DNA of 51,054 nt, taken from Pseudovirgaria hyperparasitica. Its lineage: Eukaryota. Positions 1,197 through 5,091 of this stretch are shown here, in pieces. A model generated the notes under the pieces. It worked only from the letters and a program-made list of their open reading frames with translations. It did no database searches and was not told where the DNA came from. The stretch lies in assembly GCA_010093815.1 (NCBI GenBank), contig ML996571.1. One strand, 5' to 3'. Positions within the stretch are counted from its first letter, which is position 1, and every line of letters begins with the position of its first letter. The position numbers and the translations under genes are program-made.

Positions 1197-1830
1197 ACTG
1201 AGGGATTGACGGTATAGCGAGGAGCGCGAGCTCTTGCGTCCAAGATGCGAGGTGTAGGCAGAGGTAGGTTTGCGGGGGCGCATTTGGTATCATCCGCCAG
1301 CTCGGGAGCTCGAAAAGCCCCACATGCTCGGGATCATTGATAGGAGACAGAGTAAATCTACTTCAAGCAGAGTGAAAGATTGTGATAATCTGCACGCAAT
1401 AGCGCTGGCTGATAAAGATTCGTCAAGAACTGTTCAATGTCATAACATGGTCCTGAAAGTGTGCCATCCACGAGAACCGGGCAATCGGCTCTTGGATTAC
1501 AAGGATCTGCTGCTTAAAGACTGTAATATTGCACAAAAATGACTTTCTCAGTTGCTAGTTCTGCCTCTACATCGTTTTGCGTTAGAAATTTTTGGAGTAT
1601 CGGCTGCTGGTTGCGCAAAACCAGTTCATTGAGAAGCGCAGGATTCCTTCCCATGGGTGTCAATGTATCGTGATTGTACCTGACTTCTTCAATTAGAATA
1701 CACCTCCGCAAACGCAATTGTATGCGATTGATGTCTTTTCATACATCTATCCTAACGCCTTTCGCCGCCCGTGCTTTTCAAAACTCCAATGCGTGATGGT
1801 ACATCTTCCTTCGAATCTCTAACGTATTGA

Positions 1831-2919
1831 CTACTCGCGCTTGAAAGGTGGCCCAGGAGGACCACCAAATTGACCTCCAGGCGGCGTCGGCCCGCCGTGA
1901 GGAGGCATACCGAATGGCATGCCACCAGGTGGTGCGCCTGGGGATTGACTCATGCCAGGTCCTCCGGGTCCCATGTTTGGAGGGAAGAAGGCTGGCGGCG
2001 GGAAGCCATTCGGTGGCGGAAATGGCATCCCCTGGGGTGGTGATCCGCCTGGACCGTTCATAGCACCAGGAGGGAAAGGAGGCGGGAAAGGCATACCGTT
2101 CGGACCTGGGCCAGGAGGTGGGCCCCCATTCGGACCAGGAGGCATGTTTGGCGGCGGAAAAGGGAACGGCATACCACGTCCCCCAGCTAAGAATTGATCA
2201 GCAAGTACCTCATAGGAATCGAACGTATAAGAATATGGAAGGTCATGGATGGATGTGATAACTACCCCATGTGTCTCTGGGAGGTCTATTTGCAGATCTC
2301 ATGGGCTCATTATATTGGTGATAGGTATCGTGGAACTGGTTGAAATTGCTGAATGGAACATTGAACTCACGTCCTCCAGGGCCTGGCATTGGAAACGGCG
2401 GTGGCATACCTCGACCTCCTAGAACAGAATTTAGGAGGTGCAGATTAAGAGACACACACGTCAAGACATACCTGGGGGTGGGAATGGGAACGGGGGTGCA
2501 CCGAAACCACCAGGAGGCCCGGCCATGGGTCCAACAGGTTGTTGTAGCATTGGATTTTGTGCCTCTTGACCAGCGGCCGCGTATGAGTTTGTGATCGAGT
2601 CTATGACACTCTGCGCTTTTTCGTGTCCAATCTCTGTAAAGCTGTTAGCTGCCTGCTCCAACATCTCAGCTCTATTGGGGGACGCTCGTTGATAATAGTC
2701 GACGACATTGCGGAGGTGATTCCTTCCACTGTTGTGCGCTTTTCGTACACTCATAGAGTCATGTGTGAGGTAGACATCGCAATAGTCACCTTCTGTCTGT
2801 CAGCATTCATGGCTTCGGCGCGTGGTGCGGAGATGAGGCGGAGGTGACCCTACAGAAGAGTAAGGAATAGTTAGCTAGGCGCGCGGTGTAGGAAGGTGGT
2901 GTGACTTATATTTCGGCAT
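1831..2919 (-). CDS. YHC1: U1 snRNP protein C (matrin-type zinc finger plus Pro/Gly-rich tail); proposed exons 2919-2910, 2859-2854, 2789-2688, 2633-2472, 2418-2371, 2186-1831 (227 aa)
   Basis: The spliced model reads [51 protein letters not shown], the canonical U1-C N-terminus. All five introns are phase 1 and exon lengths sum to 684 nt. Introns 1 and 3 need non-canonical ends (see findings). Confidence 0.92.
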
Positions 2920-3389
2920 CTTGATCAGATTGTAAAGCTTTTGAGCGTTTTGCGACCCTTCCTCGGATAGGTATTGTGTTGTCGACAGTCAATGAAACCT
3001 CAACCTAAAGTCGCGTCGGTACGAAAGCTATCAGTTTCGGCACAACTTCGGAGCGCCGGCTACTTGACGTGGACGCATGTTTTTTTTGCTTTCATGCTTC
3101 TCCGCCTCGAAATACTCAATTGTGGTATATTGTAAAGCGGGGTGAGCTTTTTATGATTCAATATACTGCTGTGAATCCTAGCATTGTTCTTATAGCTATA
3201 CCTTACACGAACCACCTGGACAGGAGACGAAAACAAGAGTCGCGTGCGAAAGTGGCGGGCCAAGCACTGGGGGACTCTGGAGAGCAAAGCCCCACAAAAA
3301 AATCTAGAAGAACTCTTGGTGTGGCATATCAACATACTACCTAATAGTCCTGCGACGACGAGTAACGCCAATATCTCCACGTCGCAGCG

Positions 3390-5091
3390 ATGGCGACAGA
3401 CGTGACACGACTGGAGCCCGTCCGCGGTGCTAAGCGGATCTCATCAATCACAGCCGAGGAGCGCTATTGGAAATCTTTTTCGTCGCAGCTACAATTACCC
3501 TCGCCAAATTCTCAACACGTTACCTATATTTCACATCCCCCGCCTTCTTCCAATTCTCTGGTGTCCCCGACACCTGAGGTCTTTGCAGTCACCGCCGGTC
3601 AACGTATACAGATATTCTCATCCCGGACAAGGAAGCTGTTAAAGACCATAACGAGATTTAATCCAGAAGACATTGCATACAGCGGGACAGTACGTCGCGA
3701 TGGCAGGATACTGCTTGCTGGCGGGAACAATGGTGTTGTCCAGGCCTTCGATGTAAACTCAAGAGCTATCTTGAAACAATTCAAAGAGCACAAACAACCC
3801 GTATGGTGCACGCAATGGCATCCGCGCGACCTCACCACAGCAATGAGCACAAGCGACGACCAAACCGTCCGCCTGTGGGATCTTCCCAGCGATGATAGCA
3901 CCCATAAGTTCTACGGCCACACCGACTACGTCCGCTGCGGGACCTTTATGCCCGGCCAAACCGACCGGCTACTCGTCAGCGGCAGCTACGATACCACAGT
4001 CCGTCTGTGGGACCCGCGAACGACAGGGAAAGCAGTAATGACGTTCAAGCACGCGGCAGCCGTCGAATCCGTTCTTCCACTCCCATCTGGCACGACGCTG
4101 CTCGCTGCCGCCGGGAACACTGTTTCTGTCCTAGATGTTATCGGCGCGCGGCCAATCACGCAGCTCAAGAATCACCAGAAAACTGTTACGACTATGGCAC
4201 TTGCGTCCAGGGGCACTCGTCTGCTAACGGGTGGTCTGGATGGGCACATAAAAGTGTTCGAGACCGCGGCGTGGAATGTCGTGGCGGGCTTCAAATACCC
4301 TAATCCCATCTTATCCCTCGACGTTATCAGCTCCGGCGCAAAGCAAGAAGACAAACACATAGCCGTCGGCACATCCACAGGTCTTGTTAGTATCCGCACA
4401 CGTCTGTCCGCACAGCAGAAACTCCAACAGCGCGAGCGAGAACGCGAGATGGATGCCTTAGCCGCCGGACGGATAGAGGAATACGATAGGAAAAAGGGCA
4501 AGCCACTAACGAGCATGATGAAGAAGAGGCTACGTGGGAAAGACTTCACAGGTGAGGGAGTGGATATCGTGGTTGAAGGGCCGAACCGAGGGAGGCTGAG
4601 GGGGGCGACGAAGTGGGAGCATGCGTTGCGAAAAGGGCAGTTCGAGGAGGCGTTGGACTATGTGCTCGACCCGGTACGTTTGGCCCTATCCTTTTCTTCT
4701 TATGCATACTTGCCATCTTGAGGCTGATATGTAAAATGATGAACAGACGCTCAACTTTAAACGCCAAGACTGCATGACACTCCTTACCACCCTCCGCCAC
4801 CGTTCCGCGCTCCGTGCTGCTCTACAGAATCGCGATGAAGTTTCACTACAGCCCATCCTGGTCTTCCTTCGCAAGACGATCAGCGATCCGCGGTTTGTTA
4901 AGCTCACCACAGACGTAGCTATGGTATTGCTAGATATCTATGGACCGCATATGGGGCTGAGCCCGGAGATTGACAAGCTGGTAAAAGACTTGCATGATGC
5001 TGTTCGGTTGAACTTTGAGATTGCGCAGTGGGCTTGTAGTATCACGGGAATGGTGGACTTGTTAATGGTAGGGGCAGAGAATCGAGATTGA
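3390..5091 (+). CDS. UTP15: U3 snoRNA-associated protein 15 (WD40, SSU processome); exons 3390-4673, 4747-5091
   Basis: WD40 repeats (HKQPVW, VRLWD, GHTDYVR, SGSYDTTVRLWD), N-terminal EERYWKSF and the UTP15 C-terminal LRHRSALRAAL..RDE motif; GTACGT..CAG intron joins the two ORFs in frame. Confidence 0.92.

What the first reader, a model, noticed from the sequence alone, without database searches (positions are those of the whole stretch)
2854..2919. U1-C gene needs an AT-AC intron and a 6-nt micro-exon
Seen (minus strand): ATGCCGAAAT | ATAAGT..GCTAACTATTCCTTAC | TCTTCT | GTAGGG..AAG | GTGACTATTGC. Removing a 50-nt intron with AT..AC ends (2909-2860) and keeping the exon TCTTCT (2859-2854) restores the conserved MPKFFCDYC exactly, including the first zinc-finger Cys. 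The donor ATAAGT is the fungal GTAAGT consensus with G+1>A, the branch site is a U2-type CTAAC, and there is no U12 ATATCC signature. Known: ascomycetes lack the minor spliceosome, and A..C termini can substitute for G..G in U2 introns. The paired change at both ends argues against a sequencing error. Inference: a U2-spliced AT-AC intron in the gene for the protein that stabilises U1/5' splice-site pairing.
Basis: partly seen in the sequence, partly recalled or inferred. Interest (0 to 1): 0.8.

Follow-up and report, generated by a model that had tools for sequence, protein, structure and literature searches.

The report
AT-AC intron in fungal U1-C gene
The gene for the splicing protein U1-C in this fungus really is interrupted by a rare intron that starts with AT and ends with AC, followed by a six-base exon. 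The same odd arrangement is kept in many other fungi, and it explains why this gene is so often mis-annotated.

Summary
Confirmed. On the minus strand the U1-C (zf-U1) gene runs 2919..1831. Spliced contigs of two public runs (one sample) join 2910 directly to 2859, which removes a 50-nt AT..AC intron. They keep the 6-nt exon TCTTCT and then join 2854 to 2789, giving MPKFFCDYC and an intact 227-aa ORF. The junction cannot slide.

The intron looks U2-type: ATAAGT donor, CTAAC branch 11 nt from the 3' end, and no U12 motifs. Published surveys find no minor spliceosome in Ascomycota.

Among 80 related metagenome loci, 29 carry the same AT..AC intron (15 distinct lineages with the window). Another 27 carry GT/GC..AG at the same site, and none mixes the ends. 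Two cDNA-like contigs of an Aureobasidium-like fungus show the intron kept in one and removed in the other.

Two extras:
- Every AT-AC lineage has the next intron starting GTAG (14/14, against 0/9 in GT-AG lineages).
- This species alone has a GA..AG third intron (2687..2634), also spliced exactly.

It is a new, deeply conserved member of the known rare class of U2-type AT-AC introns. Dependence on the major spliceosome is inferred, not shown.

The parts
1831..2919 (-). U1-C (U1 snRNP protein C, zf-U1) coding region: six coding exons, 227 aa, stop codon ending at 1831
   Evidence: Exons joined by coordinates in a script give an open frame that starts MPKFFCDYCDVY. Pfam zf-U1 match. All five introns are bridged by contigs.
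2910..2965 (-). Exon 1: 5'UTR plus ATGCCGAAAT (ATG at 2919-2917). Its upstream limit is not mapped; at least 56 letters are in the X2 contig.
   Evidence: table 5 (side 56) and table 7 (17-letter loose end of X1 equal to 2926..2910).
2860..2909 (-). Intron 1: 50 nt with AT..AC ends. Donor ATAAGT at 2909-2904; 3' end TAC at 2862-2860.
   Evidence: The junction is unambiguous because the flanking bases differ. The same intron with AT..AC ends is in 29 of 80 related loci.
2870..2874 (-). Probable branch site CTAAC of intron 1, with branch A at 2871, 11 nt from the 3' end
   Evidence: Sequence. CTRAY lies 10-12 nt from the 3' end in the AT-AC lineages (for L035 by my reading of TACTAAT in the sequence, because the script printed another site). 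The branch was not mapped experimentally.
2854..2859 (-). 6-nt micro-exon TCTTCT. It completes the two Phe codons and gives the first base of the first zinc-finger Cys codon.
   Evidence: table 5c (six letters between the two sides of the joint) and tables 7 and 8 (the X1 contig starts its match at 2859).
2790..2853 (-). Intron 2: 64 nt, GT..AG, donor GTAGGG (2853-2848). It is retained in the X1 contig and removed in the X2 contig.
   Evidence: The donor begins GTAG in 14 of 14 AT-AC lineages and in 0 of 9 GT-AG lineages.
2688..2789 (-). Exon 3: rest of the zinc finger ([11 protein letters not shown]... to YYQ plus the first base of the next codon)
2634..2687 (-). Intron 3: 54 nt with GA..AG ends (donor GAGCGT, branch CTAAC, acceptor TTTACAG). 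It is in frame, so retention would add 18 aa.
   Evidence: table 5: skips 54, plus-strand ends CT..TC, 'both' 0, seen in both runs. All 55 related loci that have this intron start it with GT. Retention gives 245 aa.
2472..2633 (-). Exon 4
   Evidence: tables 5 and 8.
2419..2471 (-). Intron 4: 53 nt, GT..AG (GTATGT...TCTAG)
   Evidence: skips 53, cut +1; sequence.
2371..2418 (-). Exon 5
2187..2370 (-). Intron 5: 184 nt, GT..AG (GTGAGT...TTCTTAG)
   Evidence: skips 184, CT..AC on the plus strand.
1831..2186 (-). Exon 6, coding part: Pro/Gly-rich tail and stop codon

Best explanation
This is the U1-C gene of a dothideomycete. The neighbouring gene's product is 100% identical to a protein that NCBI names from Pseudovirgaria hyperparasitica.

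The first intron of the pre-mRNA is a genuine AT-AC intron of the U2 (major-spliceosome) type, 50 nt long. It is followed by a 6-nt exon and an ordinary GT-AG intron. Removing both introns builds the codons for MPKFFC, including the first zinc-finger cysteine, so correct use of the AT and AC sites is needed to make U1-C at all. Keeping either intron gives an early stop.

Mechanism (inferred from established knowledge):
- U1 snRNA pairs with positions +2 to +6 of ATAAGT.
- U2 pairs with the CTAAC branch site 11 nt from the 3' end.
- In the second step, an A(+1) to C(-1) contact replaces the usual G to G contact between the first and last intron bases. That is why the two ends always change together.

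The AT-AC state is old. It is kept in lineages assigned, by the names of mis-predicted proteins, to Dothideomycetes, Eurotiomycetes and Lecanoromycetes. Other Pezizomycotina have GT-AG or no intron at the same site.

Shown: the junctions, the ORF, the covariation and the conservation. Inferred: which spliceosome acts, the branch point, and the A-C contact.
For: RNA-level junctions in this organism:
- X2 contig (depth 1826): 2910, then TCTTCT, then 2789.
- X1 contig (depth 388): 2910 joined to 2859, with intron 2 retained.
- In the same contigs, two canonical GT-AG introns (2471..2419 and 2370..2187) are bridged, so these are spliced forms on the gene's strand.

ORF: the joined exons give 227 aa starting MPKFFCDYCDVY. 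Retention of intron 1 or intron 2 stops after 14 or 20 residues. The zinc-finger profile needs those six residues.

U2-type features:
- The donor is ATAAGT. [quoted passage not shown]
- All 15 distinct AT-AC introns are 49-57 nt and end in YAC. The donor is ATAAGT in 13, ATATGT in 1 and ATAGGT in 1. CTRAY lies 10-12 nt from the 3' end (for L035 read by eye).

Covariation and conservation:
- Of the 80 loci, 29 are AT-AC, 25 GT-AG and 2 GC-AG. A further 22 have no intron 1 and 2 are cut off upstream. None mixes AT with AG or GT with AC.
- Outside the splice signals the intron sequences are unalignable between lineages (15 clusters at 80% identity).

Second species: L054 and L041 are 97% identical over 941 nt, share a 5'UTR, and lack intron 3. 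L054 keeps the AT-AC intron and L041 has AAAT joined to TCTTCT.

Taxonomic spread:
- Predicted proteins that read into the intron (MPKYK...) come from Saccharata, Aureobasidium, Rhizodiscina and Lambiella.
- Predictions that start inside its 3' end (MHS[SF]VG) come from Polytolypa and a Penicillium (lineages).

Minor spliceosome: PMC10639083 finds no convincing minor introns in Ascomycota and loss of most minor snRNAs (passages read).
Against: - The two runs are one sample of one study and are not on record as RNA. That they are cDNA is my inference from contigs that bridge all five introns in two different partly spliced forms.
- No contig covers the inside of intron 1, so its end bases in this organism rest on the assembly alone.
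- No genome was held, so absence of U11, U12, U4atac and U6atac in this species was not tested.
- No branch point was mapped.
- The class-level spread rests on reading mis-predicted proteins, not on named genomic DNA.
They sit at the very 3' end, where they could not serve as a branch.
Confidence: 0.88

Rival explanations
1. The intron is a U12-type (minor spliceosome) AT-AC intron.
For: The AT..AC ends are those of most known AT-AC introns. The 3' end TTCCTTAC resembles the U12 branch motif (recalled consensus TCCTTAAC).
Against: - The donor is ATAAGT, not ATATCCTT. None of the 15 distinct AT-AC introns has ATATCC.
- The U12-like letters abut the 3' end, so they lie 0-2 nt from the splice site instead of about 10-15 nt.
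- A U2-type CTAAC sits at the usual fungal distance.
- PMC10639083 finds no minor introns and few or no minor snRNAs in Ascomycota.
Confidence: 0.02
2. The AT and AC are assembly errors or belong to a decaying gene copy; the true intron is GT-AG.
For: No read or contig covers positions 2909 and 2860.
Against: - Two independent errors would be needed at exactly the two end bases.
- The same AT..AC ends are in 29 of 80 related loci from many projects (14 other distinct lineages).
- The gene is spliced into an intact 227-aa ORF.
Confidence: 0.01
3. The joined forms are artefacts (reverse-transcriptase template switching) or DNA retro-copies, not products of splicing at AT and AC.
For: The run type is unknown ('?'). 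Template switching is a known source of false non-canonical junctions; it is raised for other cases in PMC7072748.
Against: - There is no repeat at the junction and the flanking bases differ. The tool gives 'both' 0 for the 2789>2910 joint.
- The product restores a conserved reading frame exactly.
- Two different partly processed forms occur in the sample.
- A second organism shows the same junction (L041 against L054).
- The signals are conserved over 15 lineages.
Confidence: 0.02
4. RNA editing turns the ends into canonical ones before splicing, for example A-to-I at +1.
For: A-to-I mRNA editing exists in some filamentous ascomycetes (recalled). Editing is mentioned as a possible source of apparent non-canonical sites in PMC7072748.
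Against: The 3' C would need a C-to-G change, for which no editing system is known (recalled). Strict pairing of A with C in all 30 cases fits a direct A-C contact better than two separate edits.
Confidence: 0.01

Closest known systems
U2-type ('type II') AT-AC introns of animals (SCN4A/SCN5A and about two dozen others; Sheth et al. 2006, PMC1557818, passages read)
   Same: AT..AC ends, with the rest of the donor matching the U2 consensus (/ATAAGT). They are conserved over long times and are very rare (24 of 608,562 U2-type introns in five species).
   Different: This one is fungal and only 50 nt long, with a CTAAC branch 11 nt from the end. It lies directly before a 6-nt exon, in the gene for a U1 snRNP protein, and is always accompanied by a GTAG donor in the next intron.
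Engineered A(+1)/C(-1) double-mutant intron in yeast (Parker and Siliciano 1993, as cited in PMC5029451; original not read)
   Same: The same logic of paired first and last bases allows the second step with A and C.
   Different: That intron is an engineered mutant. This one is natural, needed for an essential gene, and kept in many lineages.
Nested AT-AC intron in S. cerevisiae RPL30 (PMC5029451, passages read)
   Same: A natural AT-AC junction in an ascomycete without a minor spliceosome.
   Different: The RPL30 event makes up 1-2% of transcripts, its donor does not resemble ATAAGT, and its authors leave its mechanism open. Here the donor is the textbook U2-type AT-AC form and the junction gives the only productive mRNA.
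U12-type AT-AC introns
   Same: The terminal dinucleotides.
   Different: Donor and branch motifs are absent. The host phylum is reported to lack the machinery (PMC10639083).
GA-AG introns (frequent in two animal species per PMC7072748; human FGFR genes, recalled)
   Same: Intron 3 of this gene (2687..2634) uses a GA donor with an AG acceptor.
   Different: Here it is a single-species change of an intron that starts with GT in all 55 related loci that have it. It lacks the AG|GAA context described for the animal cases.
Stwintrons (nested spliceosomal twin introns of Pezizomycotina; search listing only)
   Same: Two tightly coupled short introns in a filamentous ascomycete.
   Different: No order of canonical GT-AG removals can give the observed product. 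The first excised base is A and the last is C whichever way the removal is split.

Membership tests
U2-type (type II) AT-AC intron | Intron ends AT..AC shown at the RNA level | tested here: met
   2910 joined to 2859, with no possible sliding. L041 against L054 shows the same in a second organism.
U2-type (type II) AT-AC intron | Donor matches the U2 consensus apart from +1 (/ATAAGT) | tested here: met
   ATAAGT in 13 of 15 distinct AT-AC introns. The consensus is stated in PMC5029451.
U2-type (type II) AT-AC intron | U2-type branch site at the normal distance; no U12 branch motif in place | tested here: met
   CTAAC with its A 11 nt from the 3' end. CTRAY at 10-12 nt in the AT-AC lineages (L035 read by eye). 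The branch itself was not mapped.
U2-type (type II) AT-AC intron | Splicing depends on U1, U2, U4 and U6 and not on U11, U12, U4atac or U6atac | not testable with these tools
   Needs snRNA depletion or extracts. Only literature on Ascomycota is available.
U12-type AT-AC intron | Donor /ATATCCTT | tested here: not met
   The donor is ATAAGTCA. None of the 15 lineages has ATATCC.
U12-type AT-AC intron | Host has the minor spliceosome snRNAs | not tested
   No genome is held for this window. Rfam finds no RNA family in the 51-kb window, which says nothing about the rest of the genome.
U1-C / zf-U1 (PF06220) | Full N-terminal zinc finger, profile positions 1-38 | tested here: met
   Exon 3 alone matches positions 7-38 (4e-16). 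The joined ORF starts MPKFFCDYCDVY, like homologues that match 1-38. The joined protein was not itself handed to Pfam.
Micro-exon | Internal exon of a few bases, present in mature RNA and flanked by two introns | tested here: met
   6 nt, 2859..2854 (tables 5c, 7 and 8). The same 6-nt exon is in 42 of 80 loci that have both introns (28 AT-AC and 14 GT-AG).

The most novel reading that the evidence does not exclude
The AT-AC intron, the 6-nt exon and the next intron may form one co-evolving unit.

The proposal is that an AC 3' end cannot be seen by the factor that normally recognises AG. The TAG held inside the next intron's donor, 10 nt downstream and after a pyrimidine run (TCTTCT-GTAG), would then serve as the stand-in AG for early assembly on intron 1. 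The A(+1) to C(-1) contact would still fix the real cut at AC.

Observations this would explain:
- GTAG is invariant in 14 of 14 AT-AC lineages, even where the usually stronger +5 G is lost (GTAGAT).
- GTAG is absent from 0 of 9 GT-AG lineages.
- The intron 3 donors of the same lineages vary freely.
- No genomic AT-AC lineage has lost intron 2 (0 of 14, against 10 of 19 GT/GC-AG clusters).

Because the gene encodes the protein that steadies U1 on 5' splice sites, the weak sites (AT here, and GA in this species) could also make U1-C output sensitive to U1 snRNP activity.
Probability: 0.25. Interest if true: 0.85.

Novelty: new member of a known kind. Interest (0 to 1): 0.72.

Why it matters
- **A rare natural case with RNA support.** Natural AT-AC introns removed by the major spliceosome are extremely rare. 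One survey found 24 among about 608,000 U2-type introns (PMC1557818). In filamentous fungi, that survey mentions them only as hypothesised. Here the case has RNA support, sits in an essential splicing gene, and is kept over what appear to be three classes of Pezizomycotina. Sister lineages hold the GT-AG form at the same site. This is a natural experiment on the pairing of the first and last intron bases.
- **Annotation.** Of 120 predicted U1-C homologues examined, 51 have a wrong N-terminus that lacks part of the zinc finger. The micro-exon and the non-canonical intron explain this. Gene finders for these fungi should allow this junction.
- **A testable link.** The invariant GTAG next door, and the GA-AG intron in the same gene, suggest a connection between 3' splice-site recognition, micro-exon definition and U1-C dosage.

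Tried and rejected
- **Sequencing runs:** no RNA holder listed. The two holders have an unknown library kind, so I judged them only by what their contigs bridge.
- **Uncovered stretches:** parts of the stretch without cover (the inside of introns 1 and 3, and 2988-3095) were not used as evidence.
- **Whole genome:** none is held, so there was no search for minor snRNAs and no genome-wide count of AT-AC or GA-AG introns.
- **Rfam on the window:** 0 matches.
- **Earlier findings of this scan:** nothing to show.
- **First translation:** wrong frame; corrected.
- **Assigning the 80 loci to taxa:** tblastn against the named homologues was mostly uninformative because the best hits are only 45-80% identical. 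Exceptions were L041, L054, L016 and L017 (best to an Aureobasidium protein at 75-97%) and L052 and L033 (best to Penicillium and Aspergillus proteins).
- **Tree of the short conserved exons:** considered and dropped as too uninformative, so a single origin of the AT-AC state is not shown.
- **Two-step canonical (stwintron-like) removal:** considered and rejected by logic. Any split of the excised 50 nt still needs a step that starts at A 2909 and a step that ends at C 2860.
- **Cryptic GT donor 4 nt downstream (ATAA|GT) paired with the TAG after the micro-exon:** this would give a frameshifted product with an early stop, and no such joint was listed.
- **Literature:** seven searches found no paper describing an AT-AC intron or micro-exon in a fungal U1-C gene. 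The library lacks most subscription journals, so this is not proof of absence. No supplements were opened.

Full report
**Observation.** On the minus strand an ATG at 2919-2917 is followed by CCGAAAT. Next comes a 50-nt stretch (2909..2860) that begins ATAAGT, contains CTAAC (2874-2870) and ends TAC. After it come TCTTCT (2859-2854), GTAGGG (2853-2848), and an AG at 2791-2790 in front of GTGACTATTGC. Translated from 2787, the next exon is [33 protein letters not shown]... and matches Pfam zf-U1 at 4e-16, but only over profile positions 7-38 of 38. Homologues that begin MPKFFCDYC match positions 1-38.

**RNA-level test.** One search for sequencing runs returned two holders from one sample of one study, with unknown library kind. 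Laid on 1800-3400, their contigs are 100% identical to the window where they match. They bridge five gaps:
- 2186>2371: skips 184, GT..AG on the gene's strand.
- 2633>2688: skips 54, ends GA..AG on the gene's strand, no sliding possible, seen in both runs.
- 2789>2910 in run X2: skips 120 with six letters in between, which are TCTTCT on the minus strand.
- In run X1 a 1056-letter contig matches 2688..2859 without a break and then carries 17 further letters equal to window 2926..2910. In that molecule the AT..AC intron is out while the following GT..AG intron is still in.

The base before the intron (T 2910) differs from its last base (C 2860), and its first base (A 2909) differs from the base after it (T 2859). 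The cut therefore cannot be redrawn with canonical ends. No series of nested or successive GT-AG removals can give this product either, because some step must start at A 2909 and some step must end at C 2860.

Joining the exons by coordinates gives an open frame of 227 aa that starts MPKFFCDYCDVY and stops at 1831. Keeping intron 1 or intron 2 gives a stop after 14 or 20 residues. Keeping intron 3 stays in frame and adds 18 aa.

Caveats: the runs are not on record as RNA. I take them as cDNA because they bridge all five introns in two different partly processed forms. No contig covers the inside of introns 1 and 3, so their end bases rest on the assembly.

**Organism.** The divergent neighbour gene (3390-4721, plus strand; Utp15-like WD40 protein) is 100% identical over 97% of the query to a protein that NCBI names from Pseudovirgaria hyperparasitica. 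This is a dothideomycete of the order Acrospermales. PMC10639083 reports no convincing minor introns in Ascomycota and loss of most or all minor snRNAs (passages read). No genome was held for this window, so I could not check this species myself.

**Type of intron.** The donor ATAAGT is the form that PMC5029451 (passages read) gives as the very strong consensus of known U2-type AT-AC introns, in contrast to /ATATCCTT for U12-type introns. The CTAAC branch candidate has its A 11 nt from the 3' end.

**Comparative evidence.** A scan of metagenome contigs with the exon 3 protein matched 456 stretches. Of these, 318 encode a relative and the best 80 were kept. I read the region between the start codon and DYCDVY in all 80:

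| State at the intron 1 site | Loci |
|---|---|
| Intron 1 with AT..AC ends | 29 |
| Intron 1 with GT..AG ends (14 with the micro-exon and intron 2; 11 without intron 2) | 25 |
| Intron 1 with GC..AG ends | 2 |
| No intron at either position (several on contigs of 30-240 kb) | 21 |
| Only intron 2 present (L041) | 1 |
| Cut off upstream (L009, L016) | 2 |

No locus combines AT with AG or GT with AC.

At 80% identity of the intron region, the 30 AT-AC sequences (window included) fall into 15 clusters. The GT-AG loci with intron 2 form 9 clusters, and the GT/GC-AG loci without it form 10. The AT-AC introns share these features:
- Length of 49-57 nt.
- Donor ATAAGT in 13 clusters, ATATGT in 1 and ATAGGT in 1.
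- A 3' end of TAC or CAC.
- CTRAY 10-12 nt from the 3' end. For L035 the script picked another site, and I read TACTAAT by eye.

**A second organism at the RNA level.**
- L041 and L054 are whole contigs of about 1 kb. They are 97% identical over 941 nt and share the same 5'UTR.
- Both lack intron 3, which their genomic relatives L017 and L035 have.
- L054 runs as one open frame to a stop.
- L054 keeps the AT..AC intron and lacks intron 2. L041 has AAAT joined directly to TCTTCT and keeps intron 2.
- These look like two partly processed cDNAs of one Aureobasidium-like species. Their best named match is an Aureobasidium protein at 94-97%.
- That protein's own gene model reads through both introns, giving MPKYK...FNYSSVG.

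**Taxonomic spread (from predicted proteins, so indirect).** I examined the 120 homologues listed (373 hits in all).
- Five start MPKYK, which is what reading into AAAT|ATAAG gives: an unnamed one, Saccharata, Aureobasidium and Rhizodiscina (Dothideomycetes), and Lambiella (Lecanoromycetes).
- Polytolypa (Onygenales) and a Penicillium start MHS[SF]VG, which is what ATGCAC|TCTTCT|GTAGG gives.
- Ten read MPKCDYC, with the micro-exon skipped between a GT donor and the intron 2 acceptor. These come from genera I recall as Sordariomycetes or Leotiomycetes.
- In all, 51 of 120 predictions lack the proper MPK[FY]FCDYC start.

**Two further observations.**

First, in all 14 genomic AT-AC clusters the donor of intron 2 begins GTAG (GTAGG in 13, GTAGAT in 1). 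In the 9 GT-AG clusters it never does; they have GTAAGT, GTAAGC, GTGAGT, GTACGT or GTATGT. As an internal control, the intron 3 donors of the same 14 AT-AC lineages vary at +3 and +4 and are AG in only 2 of 14. No genomic AT-AC cluster has lost intron 2 (0 of 14), against 10 of 19 GT/GC-AG clusters (Fisher p = 0.0014). That test is not corrected for shared descent, so it is only a hint. This suggests, but does not show, that the TAG 10 nt beyond the AC end is itself under selection.

Second, intron 3 starts with GT in all 55 related loci that have it, and with GA only in the window. The contigs of both runs nevertheless splice it exactly at GA..AG.

**Literature.**
- PMC1557818 (passages read) counts 24 U2-type AT-AC introns among 608,562 U2-type introns of five species. 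It notes that some xylanase genes of filamentous fungi had been hypothesised to contain such introns.
- PMC5029451 reports a nested, minor (1-2%) AT-AC event in yeast RPL30 with an atypical donor, and cites the engineered AT-AC intron of Parker and Siliciano.
- RNA-seq surveys of ascomycetes list AT-AC junctions only as counts: PMC3577648, PMC4324775 and PMC4084796 (passages read).
- PMC7072748 (passages read) finds AT-AC rarer than CT-AC in fungal annotations.
- None of seven searches turned up a report on the U1-C gene.

**Verdict.** The observation and the interpretation both hold. This is a real, productive AT-AC intron of the U2 kind followed by a 6-nt exon, in the gene for U1-C. It is conserved with perfectly paired ends across many Pezizomycotina lineages. 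As a kind it is known; as an instance it appears unreported and is unusually well supported. It also comes with two unexplained companions: the invariant GTAG donor of intron 2 and the GA-AG intron 3.

Noticed in passing
window 2634-2687 (minus strand): The third intron of the same gene has GA..AG ends (donor GAGCGT). It is spliced exactly in contigs of both runs. All 55 related loci that have this intron start it with GT. It is in frame, so retention would add 18 aa. The A at +2 (2686) is not covered by any contig.
   Followed up: partly
loci L002-L072 (AT-AC class) and window 2848-2853: The donor of intron 2 begins GTAG in 14 of 14 AT-AC lineages and in 0 of 9 GT-AG lineages. One AT-AC lineage keeps TAG while losing the +5 G (GTAGAT, L034 group).
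   Followed up: partly
homologues P0002-P0121: 51 of 120 predicted U1-C proteins in public sets have wrong N-termini: micro-exon skipped, read into an intron, other starts, or starting at MSVRKAH. This fits gene finders failing at the micro-exon and the AT-AC intron. No row among the 120 was flagged as the window's own protein.
   Followed up: partly
L036 and L051: Intron 1 has GC..AG ends (GCAAGC, GCACGT) in two lineages that lack intron 2. This is a third state of the same intron.
   Followed up: no
L041 and L054: Two contigs in the metagenome collection behave as cDNA: no intron 3 and a shared 5'UTR. Each retains a different one of introns 1 and 2, so both orders of removal occur.
   Followed up: partly
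window 2920-3389 and 3390-4721 (plus strand): A Utp15-like WD40 gene lies head to head with U1-C across about 470 bp. Its product is 100% identical to an NCBI protein named from Pseudovirgaria hyperparasitica.
   Followed up: partly
P0029, P0074, P0104: Predictions from Lachnellula and Metarhizium read MPKFFC and then run into an intron. This suggests lineages with intron 2 but no intron 1.
   Followed up: no
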